DNA from: a virus
Taxonomy: Duplodnaviria; Caudoviricetes
IMG/VR virus record: IMGVR_UViG_3300043434_000734
Span: 96,001 to 160,000 of that record
DNA length: 64,000 nucleotides
Reading direction: 5' to 3' (one strand)
Shown in pieces: positions 17,190 to 61,603 of the stretch (its first letter is position 1; each line of letters starts with the position of its first letter). A program made the position numbers and the translations under genes. The notes under the pieces are model-generated. The model saw only the letters and a program-made list of their open reading frames with translations, was not told the DNA's origin and made no database searches.

Positions 17190-17221
17190 AAAAAACCCCC
17201 GTATTTCTACGAGGGTTTTTA
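17190..17221. terminator. Intrinsic terminator after the major capsid gene
   Basis: GC stem flanked by A- and T-tracts. Confidence 0.75.
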
Positions 17222-21044: not shown

Positions 21045-21470
21045 TTATTTTTTTGATTTGTAAAAATTGAATAATTTTTTATTGGAAAGACCCTCCTCAA
21101 TAACCGTTAATAAAATATCTTTTACATTATTTTTGGTTTCTTTTGACTTAACATCGAATTGTTTATCGACATATAAAGTCACCTCTAAGTTCATAAAAGA
21201 CCTTTTTTCTAATTTTATTCCTTTTGTTCTTACATCTAAATCAACAATTGATTGTTGTTTAAAATTGGGACTATTAAGATTGTAAATAATTTCTTTTACT
21301 TTTCTTCTGGTTTTACTAATCGTTAAATCAAAATCGTCGGTTTCATTATCAGCTTGAATCCAAGAATTTAATTTAAGATAAATGGTTTTTAAATTTTTAA
21401 AATCTACGGTACCATAACCGATTTTTACGTTTTGGTATGTCCCTAATGGGATATACTTACCTGTCTTCAT
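21045..21470 (-). CDS. Hypothetical protein
   Basis: 141-aa ORF in the head module. Confidence 0.75.
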   Translation of the reverse strand: MKTGKYIPLGTYQNVKIGYGTVDFKNLKTIYLKLNSWIQADNETDDFDLTISKTRRKVKEIIYNLNSPNFKQQSIVDLDVRTKGIKLEKRSFMNLEVTLYVDKQFDVKSKETKNNVKDILLTVIEEGLSNKKLFNFYKSKK

Positions 21471-21547
21471 TAATTTTTCATATTATTTCATTTTATGGTG
21501 TTAATAAAAAATAACAAAAAAAAATTACAATACCAAAAATATTTTTA

Positions 21548-21555
21548 TATATTTG
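21548..21555 (+). promoter_or_regulatory. Bacteroidota-type -7 element (TATATTTG) upstream of rpsU
   Basis: Matches TAnnTTTG, 17 nt before ATG. Confidence 0.7.
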
Positions 21556-21572
21556 TAATATACTTATATATT

Positions 21573-21764
21573 ATGATTATAATTGACTTATCTAAAGAAA
21601 AAAGCATAGAGAGTGCGTTAAGGACTTACAAACAGAAAGTTCAAAAAACTAAACAGATTCAAAAATTGAGGGAAAGAAAAGAATTCACCAAACCTTCAGT
21701 TATTAAAAGAAATGAAAAGTTGAAGGCAGTCTATGTACAACAAATAAAAAATGGTCTTAATTAA
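21573..21764 (+). CDS. rpsU: Ribosomal protein bS21
   Basis: IESALRTYKQKV.KT.....LRERKEFTKPSVIKR (F.KPS..R signature), 63 aa. Confidence 0.92.
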   Translation: MIIIDLSKEKSIESALRTYKQKVQKTKQIQKLRERKEFTKPSVIKRNEKLKAVYVQQIKNGLN

Positions 21765-21776
21765 GACCATTTTTTA
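21745..21776. terminator. 32-bp perfect palindrome / bidirectional terminator spanning two convergent stops
   Basis: taaaaaatggtcttaa|ttaagaccatttttta. Confidence 0.85.
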
Positions 21777-22506
21777 ATTCTGTCAATCTATAGTAATTAT
21801 ATCTTGAAGTTTCCATTTCGTCTACTTCATTTTTTACTTTATTTAATTTACTTATCATTTCACTATCATTTACCACTGACTCGTTTAAAAGTGTATTGAC
21901 TTGATTTGTAATTGATTCTTTTAATTCAATTGTTTTAGATTCCAATTCTTCACTTGGGATTGATAATATGTTTTTCAACTCTTCTTGTTGTGACTCAGAT
22001 AATGTATTTGAATATAATATATTAAAATTATTTGCTAATACTGCGTGTAATAGATTTTCGTTTTGAGAATAAACGACTTGCTTAGATTCGTTTACATCTT
22101 TTTTAGTTATTAAATGGTCGACCAATTTCTTTTTAGCAATCACTTTATTTTCAATATTTGAAAGTGAATCTTTTAACGTTAATTGATCTAACGATTCATA
22201 CAATTGATTAGTTTTAATTTCAACATCACCTAATTTATTATTTAATGATTCACAAAAAACTGTTAAGTCATCTTTAGTCATTAATTGTGATAACATTGTG
22301 CTCACCCCCTCAACGTATAATTTTGCAGTTTCTTTATCCTCAATATACTTGTTTTCAATTTCTTCATAGAACAAATACATTTCTTTAAAGTCTTTATTTT
22401 CTTTAATTGTTTTTAATATATCTTTAACTTCTGTCTTATTTTCTTTTGTGTAAGACTCAGTTAATTTTGTCAACATTTTGGATTTTAATTCCCCGAATTT
22501 GTTCAT
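21757..22506 (-). CDS. Hypothetical head-module protein
   Basis: 249-aa ORF immediately downstream of portal. Confidence 0.8.
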   Translation of the reverse strand: MNKFGELKSKMLTKLTESYTKENKTEVKDILKTIKENKDFKEMYLFYEEIENKYIEDKETAKLYVEGVSTMLSQLMTKDDLTVFCESLNNKLGDVEIKTNQLYESLDQLTLKDSLSNIENKVIAKKKLVDHLITKKDVNESKQVVYSQNENLLHAVLANNFNILYSNTLSESQQEELKNILSIPSEELESKTIELKESITNQVNTLLNESVVNDSEMISKLNKVKNEVDEMETSRYNYYRLTELKNGLN

Positions 22507-22508
22507 TT

Positions 22509-24320
22509 TTAGTCGTTTAATATGTCTTTTATTTTTGTTTCTATTTCATAAATATTCTTTTGTGCTCTTTCCATATCAAATAAGATATTGAAATCTTCGT
22601 TTTCCTCACCCAACATACCTAATATTTTTGATTTTTTTGTTTCACTTAGTGGTTCTTCACCTCCACCACTCGATGGTGGTGGGCCTCCACCCATATCCAT
22701 ACCACCTCCTTCGGCACCCTCACCTGATGCGGCATCCATTGCCTTTTCTCTTTCCTCCTCAGGTATACCATACTTCTTATCCACCTCATCAAATACTCCA
22801 GAACGTTTGATAACCATTTGAGAATTTGTTAATTCGAATCCCATTGCTCTTTCTAAACGTTGTTGTTGTAAATCAAGTAACACTTCACTATCACTCATAC
22901 CTAAGATATTTTTCTTGGCCCAAGTGTGTGAAACAGGTAAGATACCAACTTGTGATTGGTCAGACGTAGCGTCTTTATATAATGTAATTTTTTCTTTCCA
23001 CTGCTCAATACGTAATAAATCGGATTGTGCGGATGGGTTTGTTAATGATAATGTGAAGTTATTTAATTCATCTTCCATACCTAAAAGGTATAGTTGAATA
23101 AGTGCAATTTTATTTAATTCCTGTATTAACGATTTTTGAATTCTGTTAATTGTACGTGCAAAACGAATATCCATTAATGCTAAACTCTTACCCTCGCCAA
23201 CAACCTCCTCAAATCCTAAGAATGCCTTTGGGATACGTAAAGCGGCTAATAACTTTTTTTGAATATATTCAATATCCGCAATCTCACCTAAATTTTGAGC
23301 CCCCGGTAACGTTTCAATTGGGTTGGTTTGTGATGGGTCTCGAACAGGAATAAAATAATCTTGGTCAACGGCCATTTGGTTGTACCTCATATCCACTTGT
23401 CCATTACGTGGGTCGGAAATTTGGTCTCTCTTAAATTTGTTAGCCACACGTTGTACATATGGTTCAATATCTTTATCGTCCATATTACCAACAAATACTT
23501 TAAATACACGTCTTTCAGGTGCTCTCGACGTTCTATAAATTAACATAGCATCTTCAGCAAGTAAAAGTTGTTTCCATATTCTTCTAATCTTATCTAACAT
23601 AGATGTACCATATGGTAATTTTCTATCGTCACCTAATAATCTAAAATGTGCAATTTCCCAAGCTTGGAATTCCATATCTTTGTTCTTCCAAGTAAATCTC
23701 AATTCCCTTGATGGTACTTTTGAATCTTTATTTATGACTCCACCTGCGGTTTTACTTGTTGCGCCCTCTAATCTTTCTATTTCTATATTCGGTAATTGTT
23801 GTACTCCAACAATTCCTTTTTCGGGGTCAATTTTTAGATACACAAAATCATCACCGTACTTACACATACCACGAGCCCACATTTGTAAGTTCGTATTTAT
23901 ATCTAATTGATTATTAAATAAATCTTCTAATATGTTTTTAATTCTATCAGATTCTGAATATATAGTCAATATTTGACCTTTTTCGGACATAGTTGTCGAC
24001 TCTTCAGCATAAATGTCAAGTGCAGCTGAAATCTCAGGTGTAAACTCCATAGATTCAAAATCGTAATATGCAGCCAATCTATTTGGTTCATAATATACCG
24101 ATTGGTTATATAGTGATTGGTCTAACTTGGTCCACTTATCAGCAATGTATTGACTTTGTTGTGCTTGTAACATTGCCTTTTCATACTCTTCTCTACTATC
24201 TGTTTTTAATAATTCATCCTTATTGAAATTAAACGAAGGTGTGTTATCCTGTTTCACACGATTAGGATAACCAAACATTCTGGTCATTTTTTGGAATACT
24301 GTTAAATTTTGATTTGCCAT
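22509..24320 (-). CDS. gp20: Portal protein (T4 gp20 family)
   Basis: YRTSRAPERRVFKVFVGNM, DYFIPVR, LPGAQNLGEIADIEY.QKKL..ALRIP. Confidence 0.95.
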   Translation of the reverse strand: MANQNLTVFQKMTRMFGYPNRVKQDNTPSFNFNKDELLKTDSREEYEKAMLQAQQSQYIADKWTKLDQSLYNQSVYYEPNRLAAYYDFESMEFTPEISAALDIYAEESTTMSEKGQILTIYSESDRIKNILEDLFNNQLDINTNLQMWARGMCKYGDDFVYLKIDPEKGIVGVQQLPNIEIERLEGATSKTAGGVINKDSKVPSRELRFTWKNKDMEFQAWEIAHFRLLGDDRKLPYGTSMLDKIRRIWKQLLLAEDAMLIYRTSRAPERRVFKVFVGNMDDKDIEPYVQRVANKFKRDQISDPRNGQVDMRYNQMAVDQDYFIPVRDPSQTNPIETLPGAQNLGEIADIEYIQKKLLAALRIPKAFLGFEEVVGEGKSLALMDIRFARTINRIQKSLIQELNKIALIQLYLLGMEDELNNFTLSLTNPSAQSDLLRIEQWKEKITLYKDATSDQSQVGILPVSHTWAKKNILGMSDSEVLLDLQQQRLERAMGFELTNSQMVIKRSGVFDEVDKKYGIPEEEREKAMDAASGEGAEGGGMDMGGGPPPSSGGGEEPLSETKKSKILGMLGEENEDFNILFDMERAQKNIYEIETKIKDILND

Positions 24321-26162: not shown

Positions 26163-26188
26163 AAAAAAAGGGAGTTAAACTCCCTTTT
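26163..26188 (-). terminator. Intrinsic terminator
   Basis: aagggag ttaaa ctccctt with A-tract on +. Confidence 0.75.
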
Positions 26189-30739: not shown

Positions 30740-30766
30740 TAAAAAACCCCGAAAAATCGGGGTTTG
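30740..30766 (-). terminator. Intrinsic terminator after hsp20
   Basis: aaccccg aaaaat cggggtt with A-tract on +. Confidence 0.8.
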
Positions 30767-40262: not shown

Positions 40263-40290
40263 AAAAAAAAAGGAGTCATTTGACTCCTTT
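40263..40290 (-). terminator. Intrinsic terminator
   Basis: aaggagtc attt gactcctt with A-tract on +. Confidence 0.8.
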
Positions 40291-59839: not shown

Positions 59840-59870
59840 AAAAAAACCCACCTAAATGGTGGGTTTTTTA
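59840..59870. terminator. Bidirectional terminator after tmRNA
   Basis: aaaaaacccacc-taaat-ggtgggtttttt. Confidence 0.88.
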
Positions 59871-61603
59871 TTTTCTATTAAACTCATTAGGTGTTCGGCT
59901 AATTCCATATGTCCCACTCTTCCAGTGTGACCGTCCATAACTCCACCATTGGTTTCATCTTTAATTAAACTATATTTCTTATAAGGTATCATATTGTCAA
60001 AACATTTCTTCTTGTGATTGACGGAACCAAAATGTTTAATATTAAATTCGTTGTGTGCGAACCTTTGTCTCTCAGGTGTTCCGTATTCAATGTTGACAAT
60101 TGCAATTTTTTTACCATTATCCGCCAATTTTTTCATCTCAACTAAATCAACGTCGGTTTTTAAATCAACAACATAATCACAATTATTGTTAATCACTTCT
60201 TTTAATTTATCATCGGTATCTCTCCAATTTGGTACCATTAAAGAATGTTTTAAATCAATACTTTCTTGTGACCATATGTTATTTGATACCACAATTTCAG
60301 GATCAACCCAAGTCCAATGGTATATTTTATTTTTGGGTAATAAATTTTTAATCACATCCATAAATTGACTTATTTCTGTCCACCAAATTGAATGAGTGTC
60401 TCTATTAATCGACAATTGTTGGGTACTCGATAAATCTACATCGTCGTTTTGTTTTGGATGTGGTGTGTTTGGTAAGATATCAACAAAGGAATTTACATTA
60501 TTCGCTAATTTAAATCTATTGATTGCTGTCCAACCAAATACCAAAATATCATTTGGTTTTATGGATTTGTAATTGTCCATAAATTTATCAAATATAGTGT
60601 AGTTAGAACATCCACCTATACCGTAGTTATGTAATTCAATGTCATATTTTTTAGAAATTATTTCACTGTAAGTTTCAGGTATGTCACCTAAAAAATCAAA
60701 ATAGTTTTTTGCCCAAACCGTACCAGCATCAAAGTGCGATTTAAATGTTTTTGTATGTGAATCACCAAACGCAAATAATCTCGGTTTTAATCTATCCTCA
60801 ATCATTTTAATTATTTTTTCACCATACATCTTATTACCAAAATAACCGGGATGTTTATCATCGGTAATACCGGGTACCTCATCTTTAATTGTTTGACCGT
60901 TGAATGTGCAGAACTGATTAACACAATTATATTCACCAAATTTTAAATTTTTTTTTGGGTCCAACAAAGAATAAAACTCATCGTATGGATTTTTCATACT
61001 CTCATCGTCAAACCAATAAAAGAATTCAATATTATTTTTTTCTAAAAAACTAAACAACCCAACAAGTTCACCTCTGTATCTATCAACATAGGCAACCGGA
61101 TTGTGATATTTTGATAAATATTCTTTAGTTTCGTCGGTAATTCTACCCTCAAAAAATTCACGTGAATACTTTATTTTATCTTTAGTGATAACTTCTTGTA
61201 TCTGTATTCCTGATAAATTACCAATATTTCTGTCATCGTCATATCTCACATTTGTAATTGCATAATCACCAATTTCATTATAATATTGGTCGACCCTATG
61301 TACTGGACTTGTAATCTCCAATAAGAATAAAGTTTTTCTTGCTTTCTCAATACCAATCTCTTCAATATGTTCATACGTTCTTCTAACTAGTCTTGGTGCT
61401 CCCGAACCCGAAAAAGCATCGTGTATTAATGAAACACCAAAATGGTTGGCGATGTATTTTGGATATGTGACATCTTTTTCATTATCCCATTCTATATTAT
61501 ATAATCTCTTATACTCATTTTTAATCATCCCTTGGTCTAAACCACCACCCGCAGTTAGTGAAGAACCATTAACATATATTCTTGTAAAGTTGTAATATTT
61601 CAT
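59852..61603 (-). CDS. Tandem SGNH-like domain protein, paralog of 33301-33966
   Basis: YVNGSSLT..DDKHP and FAFGDSHT..DGH. Confidence 0.65.
   Translation of the reverse strand: MKYYNFTRIYVNGSSLTAGGGLDQGMIKNEYKRLYNIEWDNEKDVTYPKYIANHFGVSLIHDAFSGSGAPRLVRRTYEHIEEIGIEKARKTLFLLEITSPVHRVDQYYNEIGDYAITNVRYDDDRNIGNLSGIQIQEVITKDKIKYSREFFEGRITDETKEYLSKYHNPVAYVDRYRGELVGLFSFLEKNNIEFFYWFDDESMKNPYDEFYSLLDPKKNLKFGEYNCVNQFCTFNGQTIKDEVPGITDDKHPGYFGNKMYGEKIIKMIEDRLKPRLFAFGDSHTKTFKSHFDAGTVWAKNYFDFLGDIPETYSEIISKKYDIELHNYGIGGCSNYTIFDKFMDNYKSIKPNDILVFGWTAINRFKLANNVNSFVDILPNTPHPKQNDDVDLSSTQQLSINRDTHSIWWTEISQFMDVIKNLLPKNKIYHWTWVDPEIVVSNNIWSQESIDLKHSLMVPNWRDTDDKLKEVINNNCDYVVDLKTDVDLVEMKKLADNGKKIAIVNIEYGTPERQRFAHNEFNIKHFGSVNHKKKCFDNMIPYKKYSLIKDETNGGVMDGHTGRVGHMELAEHLMSLIENKKPTI

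What the first reader, a model, noticed from the sequence alone, without database searches (positions are those of the whole stretch)
21745..21776. 32-bp perfect palindrome makes two convergent proteins end in the same peptide (KNGLN*)
taaaaaatggtcttaattaagaccatttttta is a perfect inverted repeat. The + strand encodes the bS21 end (IKNGLN*, stop 21762-64). The - strand encodes the end of the 249-aa head-module protein (LKNGLN*, stop 21757-59). Each transcript gets a stem followed by a U-tract, so a bidirectional terminator is encoded wholly within two coding sequences. It could also be a cruciform or the scar of rpsU insertion (inference).
Basis: seen in the sequence. Interest (0 to 1): 0.75.

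Follow-up and report, generated by a model that had tools for sequence, protein, structure and literature searches.

The report
Two-way terminator inside two gene ends
A giant freshwater phage ends its ribosomal-protein gene and the facing head-module gene inside one conserved 32-base hairpin that most likely stops transcription from both directions, which forces both proteins to end in the same few amino acids; it is a neat, compact variant of a well-known signal rather than a new kind of element.

Summary
Window 21745-21776 is a perfect 32-nt palindrome, the only one of this size in the window. The phage bS21 gene (+, 21573-21764) and a 249-aa gene (-, 21757-22506) overlap by 8 nt in it, and both end KNGLN*.

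It is not an artefact. The junction recurs in more than 150 independent IMG/VR contigs of this freshwater Bacteroidota-phage group (Chen et al. 2022).
- 61 of 69 distinct bS21-bearing junctions keep the hairpin.
- Three stem pairs change on both arms together, with no mismatched intermediate in 70 rows. One of these changes turns N into D in both proteins.
- One more distant bS21 clade lacks the long palindrome.

Relatives without bS21 carry a canonical terminator at or just after the end of the 249-aa gene, twice embedded in its last codons. The hairpin is therefore not simply an insertion scar.

Best reading: a bidirectional intrinsic terminator, or 3'-end hairpin, that insulates the antisense bS21 cassette from late head-gene transcription. 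The mirrored peptide is a consequence of its symmetry. RNA 3' ends could not be tested.

Novelty is a variant of a known kind. Interest is moderate.

The parts
21745..21776 (.). Perfect 32-nt palindrome. As RNA on either strand it forms a 14-bp stem with a 4-nt AAUU loop.
   Evidence: Conserved in 61 of 69 distinct bS21+ junctions.
21752..21769 (.). G/C-containing core stem-loop (7 bp plus a 4-nt loop, -7.2 kcal/mol on both strands). This is the part that covaries.
21770..21779 (+). T-run (six T, then AATT) that would follow the core stem in the bS21 transcript. It is encoded by the Glu-Leu-Lys codons of the 249-aa gene.
   Evidence: Synonymous sites of these codons are almost invariant.
21738..21751 (-). 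T-run (six T, A, TTT, G, TT, G on the - strand) that would follow the core stem in the 249-aa gene transcript. It is encoded by the Gln-Gln-Ile-Lys codons of bS21.
   Evidence: CAA is used at both Gln codons with no CAG, against 13% CAG at the other Gln codons of the gene.
21757..21764 (.). 8-nt overlap of the two coding sequences (TTAATTAA). It holds both TAA stop codons across the hairpin loop.
21573..21764 (+). Phage bS21 (rpsU), 63 aa.
   Evidence: Pfam PF01165 E 3e-11. PHROG 21469. Aligns 1-62 with 7jil chain z.
21757..22506 (-). 249-aa all-helical protein of unknown function. It is family 'fam498 / bS21_CN' of Chen et al. 2022.
   Evidence: No Pfam, PHROG or PDB fold match.
21548..21555 (+). 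TATATTTG, a match to the Bacteroidota -7 promoter consensus TAnnTTTG, 18 nt before the bS21 start. Conserved in relatives.
21491..21501 (-). Conserved ACACCATAAAA motif about 20 nt upstream of the 141-aa gene. It is also present in bS21-less relatives. It is a possible promoter or leader of the next late unit.
   Evidence: It is not a repeated motif in the window.
21045..21470 (-). 141-aa gene, the first gene downstream of the hairpin on the - strand, followed by the prohead protease.

Best explanation
The palindrome is a selected hairpin that acts as a bidirectional factor-independent terminator, or at least a 3'-end-forming and stabilising hairpin.

How it is read on each strand:
- On the - strand it ends the portal/249-aa late transcript.
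- On the + strand it ends the short bS21 transcript, which starts at its own host-type promoter.

Why it would matter: bS21 lies antisense inside the head module. The hairpin would keep bS21 transcription from running antisense into the 249-aa and portal genes. It would also keep late transcription from running antisense through bS21.

Why the peptides match: both coding sequences run into the hairpin and stop in its loop, and the hairpin is symmetric. The stem-encoded residues K-N-G-L are therefore read identically on both strands, so the identical tail is a consequence of RNA-structure selection.

Shown: anatomy, conservation, covariation and the context in relatives.
Inferred: that RNA polymerase actually stops here, and in both directions.
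For: 1. Canonical anatomy on both strands. There is a 7-bp G/C core, a 4-nt loop, six U directly 3', an A-tract 5', and a fold z-score of about -6.

2. Genome habit. The same A-stem-T hairpins stand at other gene ends in this window: 17196-17215, 26170-26184, 30747-30762, 40272-40287 and 59847-59863. The last of these also has its stop codon in the loop. Others lie 6-7 nt after a stop codon.

3. Conservation with covariation.
- On 38 distinct junctions, 95.5% of cells are paired, no core cell is unpaired, and 0 of 500 shuffles reach the observed score.
- Synonymous choices are mirrored almost exactly in the two genes: AAT/AAC is 56/9 against 55/9, and GGT/GGA is 45/20 against 44/20. Leu is CTT in 65 of 65 and 64 of 65 sequences.
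- On a tree built without the hairpin codons, the two pairs change 5 and 6 times, always on both arms, and 9 of 9 independent contrasts are concordant.

4. A non-synonymous paired change. AAT to GAT on both arms gives KDGL in both proteins in L173 and L176.

5. Loop-encoded last residues vary freely and differ between the two proteins.

6. bS21-less relatives keep a strong terminator at the same place.
- It is embedded in the last codons in L161 and L174.
- It lies 11 nt downstream in L164-167 and about 35 nt downstream in L162.

7. Chen et al. 2022 (PMC9723584) report that this conserved region is not transcribed as one operon.
Against: - No RNA 3'-end data exist for it.
- Both stop codons lie in the loop, so a terminating ribosome would cover the hairpin. 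In E. coli a terminator placed a few bases after a gene is almost fully repressed (PMC4824070, abstract).
- The core stem is modest (-7.2 kcal/mol, 3 G-C pairs).
- One bS21 clade (L168-L189) manages without the long palindrome and has only weak, shifted hairpins.
- The two arms are only 32 nt apart. Recombination, or hairpin-templated repair, could move or create paired changes as a unit, so the number of independent mutational events is uncertain.
- The covariation would equally fit a DNA hairpin.
Confidence: 0.68

Rival explanations
1. One-way terminator with a passenger. The hairpin is the terminator of the 249-aa/late transcript only. bS21 merely overlaps it, and its transcript ends elsewhere or by polymerase collision. 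The symmetry on the bS21 side is a by-product.
For: bS21-less relatives have the hairpin plus a T8-T9 run at the end of the 249-aa gene. The - strand T-run is the better of the two; the simple scan flagged only the - strand. The A-tract on the 249-aa side is also present in bS21-less L174, where it simply encodes Leu-Lys.
Against: The + strand also has six U directly after the same core stem. The Glu, Leu and Lys codons of the 249-aa gene that supply this run show almost no synonymous variation. An unterminated bS21 transcript would run antisense into the portal gene.
Confidence: 0.15
2. DNA-level element. The palindrome works as double-stranded or extruded DNA: a cruciform, a binding site for a dimeric protein, or a recombination or insertion site for the bS21 cassette. 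It would not act as an RNA signal.
For: It is a perfect 32-bp palindrome with an AT-rich centre. The DNA hairpin is stable (-11.4 kcal/mol, z -7). It lies exactly at the boundary of the stretch that is present or absent relative to L174. Covariation alone cannot tell a DNA hairpin from an RNA hairpin.
Against: Base identity changes while pairing is kept, which argues against a sequence-specific protein site. The palindrome is unique in the window, with no second copy. The central TTAATTAA occurs at chance frequency. The outer A-T pairs tolerate G-T type departures while the T-runs stay T-rich, as expected for a terminator. bS21-less relatives have ordinary terminators at this place.
Confidence: 0.08
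3. Protein-level selection. The shared tail is a functional peptide, such as a targeting or interaction tag, that both proteins need. The palindrome is then a by-product of encoding it twice, tail to tail.
For: The 249-aa family keeps a C-terminal L-[KN]-x-[GSN]-L motif down to 26% identity, with or without a hairpin. Cellular F. johnsoniae bS21 ends in a similar ...LKDSL. The tail lies in a confidently predicted terminal helix.
Against: Protein selection cannot explain synonymous third positions that are mirrored in 70 of 70 rows, or the invariant CTT Leu codon. In another bS21 clade the two tails differ completely (NNPKD against SKSLD). The peptide is probably tolerated by both proteins rather than being the selected object.
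Confidence: 0.06
4. Chance duplication or assembly artefact.
For: Logan contigs (k = 31) break exactly at the palindrome, which shows that assemblers do struggle here.
Against: The junction is present in more than 150 independently assembled contigs from many samples, with sequence variants. No simulated sequence reached 16-nt arms.
Confidence: 0.01

Closest known systems
Bidirectional intrinsic (Rho-independent) terminators between convergent genes, such as those analysed in Bacillus cereus (PMC5381666) and discussed for E. coli (PMC4824070)
   Same: An A-tract, a G/C stem-loop and a T-tract that read as a terminator on both strands. It lies at a convergent gene pair. The stem is kept by compensatory changes. 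Such shared terminators are reported to be more conserved than one-way terminators.
   Different: There is no intergenic DNA here at all. Both coding sequences enter the hairpin and overlap by 8 nt in its loop. Both stop codons are in the loop. The stem therefore encodes four residues of each protein, and structure-preserving changes alter both proteins in parallel.
Intrinsic terminators that overlap the 3' end of the upstream gene (noted as existing in PMC4824070, introduction)
   Same: The 5' arm of the hairpin is coding and the stop codon lies in or next to the hairpin. This also holds at 59847-59863 in this window and in relatives L161 and L174.
   Different: In this case the 3' arm and the T-run are coding too, on the other strand. 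In E. coli such proximity represses termination (PMC4824070). Whether that applies in the Bacteroidota host is unknown.
bS21 phages of freshwater Bacteroidota and their 'bS21_CN' neighbour gene (Chen et al. 2022, PMC9723584)
   Same: The same phage group and the same gene pair. bS21 is on the reverse strand of the head module, next to fam498, which is the 249-aa gene.
   Different: The paper does not mention a terminator, palindrome, hairpin or stem-loop (0 text hits). The overlap offers a simple reason for three of its observations: the clade-specific bS21 C-terminus, the matching phylogenies, and the similar RNA levels of the two genes. Unlike the paper's outgroups, I find fam498 homologues in phages without bS21.

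Membership tests
Intrinsic (factor-independent) bidirectional terminator | Stable stem-loop with G-C pairs and a 3-8 nt loop | tested here: met
   7-bp core (3 G-C pairs) within a 14-bp stem, with a 4-nt loop. Energy is -7.2 and -14.1 kcal/mol respectively, z about -6.
Intrinsic (factor-independent) bidirectional terminator | U-run directly 3' of the stem on both strands (A-tract 5' and T-tract 3') | tested here: met
   Six T follow the core on both strands. The simple scanner listed the - strand only.
Intrinsic (factor-independent) bidirectional terminator | Position at the 3' ends of two convergent transcription units | tested here: met
   bS21 (+) and the 249-aa gene (-) converge and overlap by 8 nt. 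bS21 has its own conserved promoter-like motif.
Intrinsic (factor-independent) bidirectional terminator | Stem maintained in relatives by compensatory change | tested here: met
   Three pairs change on both sides, with no unpaired core cells in 70 rows and 9 of 9 concordant contrasts.
Intrinsic (factor-independent) bidirectional terminator | RNA 3' ends map in the U-runs, with termination in vivo or in vitro | not testable with these tools
   Only Logan contigs of relatives were available, with no raw RNA reads.
Ribosomal protein bS21 (Pfam PF01165) | Profile match above the curated cut-off, with full-length alignment to a ribosome-bound bS21 including the aromatic residue at position 54 | tested here: met
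   43.3 bits against a cut-off of 27. Aligns 1-62 with 7jil chain z, with Tyr at the equivalent of Tyr54 (the role of Tyr54 is as described in PMC9723584).
Palindromic protein-binding site (operator or restriction-type site) | Base identity conserved, not merely pairing; usually more than one copy | tested here: not met
   Pairs switch identity while keeping complementarity. There is a single copy in the window. TTAATTAA occurs at chance frequency.

The most novel reading that the evidence does not exclude
The hairpin may be a translation-gated, two-way terminator. Both stop codons sit in the loop, so a ribosome finishing either protein would melt the hairpin. Termination in each direction would then depend on how closely ribosomes follow the polymerase. 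One of the two genes makes bS21, a protein thought to bias translation initiation towards phage messages. This could close a feedback loop between translation status, bS21 output and antisense read-through into the head genes.

A weaker novel point is essentially shown here: selection on a nucleic-acid stem drives parallel amino-acid change (N to D) in two unrelated proteins.
Probability: 0.1. Interest if true: 0.7.

Novelty: new variant of a known kind. Interest (0 to 1): 0.45.

Why it matters
- It shows how far a large phage compresses regulatory signals into coding sequence. One 32-nt hairpin serves as the 3' end of two genes and as part of both proteins.
- It gives a clean natural example of RNA or DNA structure constraining, and even co-changing, two protein sequences.
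- It offers a simple physical explanation for unexplained observations in the published description of bS21 phages: the clade-specific bS21 C-terminus, and the co-phylogeny and similar expression of bS21 and its 'CN' neighbour.
- It marks a transcription boundary that matters for interpreting when and how the phage-encoded ribosomal protein is made.
- It is also a practical warning. k = 31 assemblies break at this site.

Tried and rejected
- RNA evidence. The one run search found only small shares (0.15 or less) in freshwater runs kept as Logan contigs, mostly of uncertain RNA or DNA nature. Laying them gave fragments of relatives, and contigs begin or end at the palindrome (for example 21401-21774 and 21751-22520). 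A 32-nt perfect palindrome collapses k = 31 graphs, so these ends say nothing about transcripts.
- The window's own genome is not held.
- A DNA search of GenBank phages found no close relative.
- Retrieval of more bS21-less relatives failed with a profile of distant homologues, with P0197 and with P0127.
- The ACACCATAAAA and TATATTTG motifs are not enriched in the window. They are conserved locally but are not shown to be general promoter motifs.
- The fold of the 249-aa protein gave no informative match: no PDB match with E 0.001 or better, and only uncharacterised phage proteins in BFVD.
- 'Insertion scar' was rejected because the hairpin occurs without bS21.
- Whether bS21 was gained or lost could not be resolved. 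L174, which lacks bS21, is nested among bS21-bearing lineages, but on a long branch.
- An earlier-findings search by words returned nothing relevant.

Full report
**1. The observation**

The sequence at 21745-21776 is a perfect inverted repeat with 16-nt arms and no spacer.
- The + ORF ends ...QQIKNGLN with TAA at 21762-21764.
- The - ORF of 249 aa ends ...TELKNGLN with its stop at 21757-21759.
- The two coding sequences therefore overlap by 8 nt.

No other zero-spacer palindrome in the window has arms longer than 8 nt. In 200 second-order Markov simulations of the window, none exceeded 12-nt arms. The motif occurs once, even allowing 3 mismatches.

As RNA, either strand folds into a 14-bp stem with an AAUU loop. 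The energy is -14.1 kcal/mol, z is about -6, and no shuffle did as well.

Bases that pair in the stem occupy the same codon position in the two genes. A perfect palindrome must therefore give the same peptide in both directions.

**2. What the genes are**

- The + gene is bS21: Pfam Ribosomal_S21 at 43 bits against a cut-off of 27, and PHROG 21469. Its start is most likely ATG 21573 (63 aa). From there it aligns residue 1-62 with the ribosome-bound bS21 of Flavobacterium johnsoniae (7jil chain z).
- The - strand carries a T4-type head module: large terminase, portal (Portal_T4, 1e-77), the 249-aa gene, then [bS21 on the other strand], a 141-aa gene, the prohead protease (Peptidase_S77), a 405-aa gene and the major head protein.
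- The 249-aa protein has no family. Its model is all-helical (pLDDT 90.7) and matches only uncharacterised phage proteins.

This is the phage group described by Chen et al. 2022 (PMC9723584). They are 293-331 kb myoviruses of freshwater Bacteroidota with bS21 'on the reverse strand' of the structural region. Their supplementary gene tables place fam498, their 'bS21_CN' gene, between bS21 and the portal. fam498 is therefore the 249-aa gene. The paper's text contains no mention of a terminator, palindrome, hairpin or stem-loop.

**3. Relatives**

Two IMG/VR scans returned 160 loci, and 158 of them carry both genes in the convergent arrangement.

*Pairing and covariation*
- In an alignment of 38 distinct junctions, 95.5% of cells pair. 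No shuffle (0 of 500) reaches that figure or the covariation score. Sliding the partner by one to three columns collapses pairing to 42-64%.
- Two core pairs switch identity with no unpaired cell: U-A to C-G, and U-A to A-U.
- At codon level the choices are mirrored in the two genes: AAT/AAC is 56/9 against 55/9, GGT/GGA is 45/20 against 44/20, and the six-fold Leu codon is CTT in 65/65 and 64/65.
- On a tree of the 249-aa protein built without its last eight residues, the two pairs need 5 and 6 changes, always on both arms. All 9 independent contrasts are concordant, and 70 of 70 rows are paired.
- A third pair changes at a first codon position. AAT becomes GAT on both arms in L173 and L176, so both proteins read KDGL instead of KNGL.

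*Tails*
- The last residue is loop-encoded and varies freely: N, S, D, V or I. It differs between the two proteins.
- Of 69 distinct bS21-bearing junctions, 61 keep the mirrored [K/R]-[N/D]-G-L design.
- The other eight, all from one more distant clade (L168-L189), have only a 4-nt TTAA overlap, unrelated tails (for example SKSLD against NNPKD), and weak, shifted hairpins.

*Caveat*
- The arms are 32 nt apart. Recombination or hairpin-templated repair could transfer or create paired states as a unit. The events on the tree are therefore an upper bound on independent mutations.

**4. Why a terminator**

The core stem (21752-21769, -7.2 kcal/mol) is followed by six T on each strand and preceded by an A-run.

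The window holds several hairpins of exactly this A-stem-T design at gene ends: 17196-17215, 26170-26184, 30747-30762, 40272-40287 and 59847-59863.
- Three hairpins lie only 6-7 nt after a stop codon.
- The one at 59847-59863 has the TAG stop of the 583-aa gene in its loop.

Embedding terminators in gene ends is thus a habit of this genome.

The codons that supply the T-runs on the opposite strand show almost no synonymous variation.
- The two Gln codons of bS21 at -8 and -7 are always CAA, whereas the other Gln codons of the gene use CAG in about 13% of sequences.
- Glu -7 of the 249-aa gene is GAA in 64 of 65, whereas Glu -23 is mostly GAG.

*Relatives without bS21*

| Locus | Terminator after the 249-aa homologue |
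|---|---|
| L161 | Hairpin embedded in the codons for N-D-S-L, stop in the loop, nine T |
| L174 | Hairpin embedded in K-N-G-I, eight T |
| L164-L167 | 11 nt downstream of the stop |
| L162 | About 35 nt downstream of the stop |
| L163 | No clear terminator |

L174 is a close relative. Its 141-aa homologue starts 81 nt after the 249-aa gene. It shares with the window the conserved ACACCATAAAA motif and the leader upstream of that gene. Compared with L174, the window has about 210 extra bases (about 21534-21744). These hold the bS21 promoter-like TATATTTG (21548-21555, conserved in relatives) and all of bS21 except its last codons. The extra stretch sits exactly between the terminator and the upstream region of the next gene.

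A transcription stop after the 249-aa gene is therefore a conserved feature of this head module and does not depend on bS21. Chen et al. also report that the region is not transcribed as one operon.

**5. Origin of the shared tail**

The hairpin is not a scar of insertion, because it exists without bS21. The direction of change, gain or loss, is unresolved. L174 is nested among bS21-bearing lineages with SH-aLRT 88, but on a long branch.

- The 249-aa family keeps an L-[K/N]-x-[G/S/N]-L C-terminus down to 26% identity.
- F. johnsoniae bS21 ends ...YIQTLKDSL, which aligns with the phage ...YVQQIKNGL.

My inference is that the peptide encoded by the stem was acceptable to both proteins, which allowed the 3' end of rpsU to be merged with the opposite arm of an existing terminator.

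This would explain three observations in Chen et al.:
- phage bS21 C-termini are clade-specific;
- bS21 and bS21_CN have matching phylogenies;
- the two genes have similar RNA levels.

**6. Rivals**

- Protein-level selection for a common tag cannot produce mirrored synonymous sites. It is also contradicted by the clade with different tails.
- A sequence-specific protein site is contradicted by pairs that change identity, by the single copy, and by the chance frequency of TTAATTAA.
- A DNA cruciform or DNA hairpin remains possible. The DNA fold is -11.4 kcal/mol, and covariation cannot separate DNA from RNA. However, nothing specifically points to it.
- A one-way terminator with bS21 as a passenger is the most serious rival.
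- Assembly artefact is excluded.

**7. Main weakness**

No RNA 3' ends could be examined. The only runs found were Logan contigs of relatives, and these break at the palindrome for a technical reason: k = 31.

Both stops lie in the loop. In E. coli a terminator a few bases behind a gene is almost fully repressed by the terminating ribosome (PMC4824070). The many stop-proximal terminators in this genome suggest the host system tolerates this. It also leaves open a translation-gated mechanism, which I rate at about 10%.

**8. Verdict**

This is a real, conserved, covarying hairpin with the full anatomy and context of a bidirectional intrinsic terminator. It is unusual in being coding on both strands throughout, and so it imprints the same residues on two unrelated proteins. 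It is a variant of a known kind. Interest is moderate (0.45).

Noticed in passing
window 59847-59863: A second A-stem-T bidirectional hairpin has its 5' arm in the last codons of the 583-aa gene (59852-61603, - strand). That gene's TAG stop lies in the loop. It is the same compact design as the finding, but coding on one strand only.
   Followed up: partly
window 21491-21501 (- strand); also L161, L165, L174: An ACACCATAAAA motif and an AT-rich leader about 20 nt upstream of the 141-aa gene are conserved in relatives with and without bS21. They may be the promoter or leader of the next late unit. The motif is not repeated elsewhere in the window.
   Followed up: partly
window 21548-21555: TATATTTG (a fit to TAnnTTTG) lies 18 nt before the bS21 ATG and is conserved in most of 57 distinct relatives. 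The 89-aa ORF from 21495 is probably an over-call, and the true start is probably 21573.
   Followed up: partly
L161, L162, L164-L167, L174: Homologues of the 249-aa 'bS21_CN' (fam498) protein occur directly after the portal gene in phages that lack bS21. Chen et al. 2022 did not detect the family in their two bS21-less outgroups.
   Followed up: partly
window 21745-21776, in Logan contigs: k = 31 contigs of several public runs start or stop exactly at the palindrome, and depth piles up in the bin that holds it. This is an assembly effect of a 32-nt perfect palindrome shared by many strains.
   Followed up: no
window 21757-22506: The database copy of this protein is called as 239 aa (starting at Met11), against the 249-aa ORF. 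The first ten residues (MNKFG..K.K) are conserved in distant homologues, so the longer form is probably right.
   Followed up: no
L168-L189 junctions: In one bS21 clade the two genes overlap only by TTAA, and a small hairpin (TAATCC, a 3-nt loop, GGATTA) lies wholly inside the bS21 tail codons. How transcripts end there is unclear.
   Followed up: no
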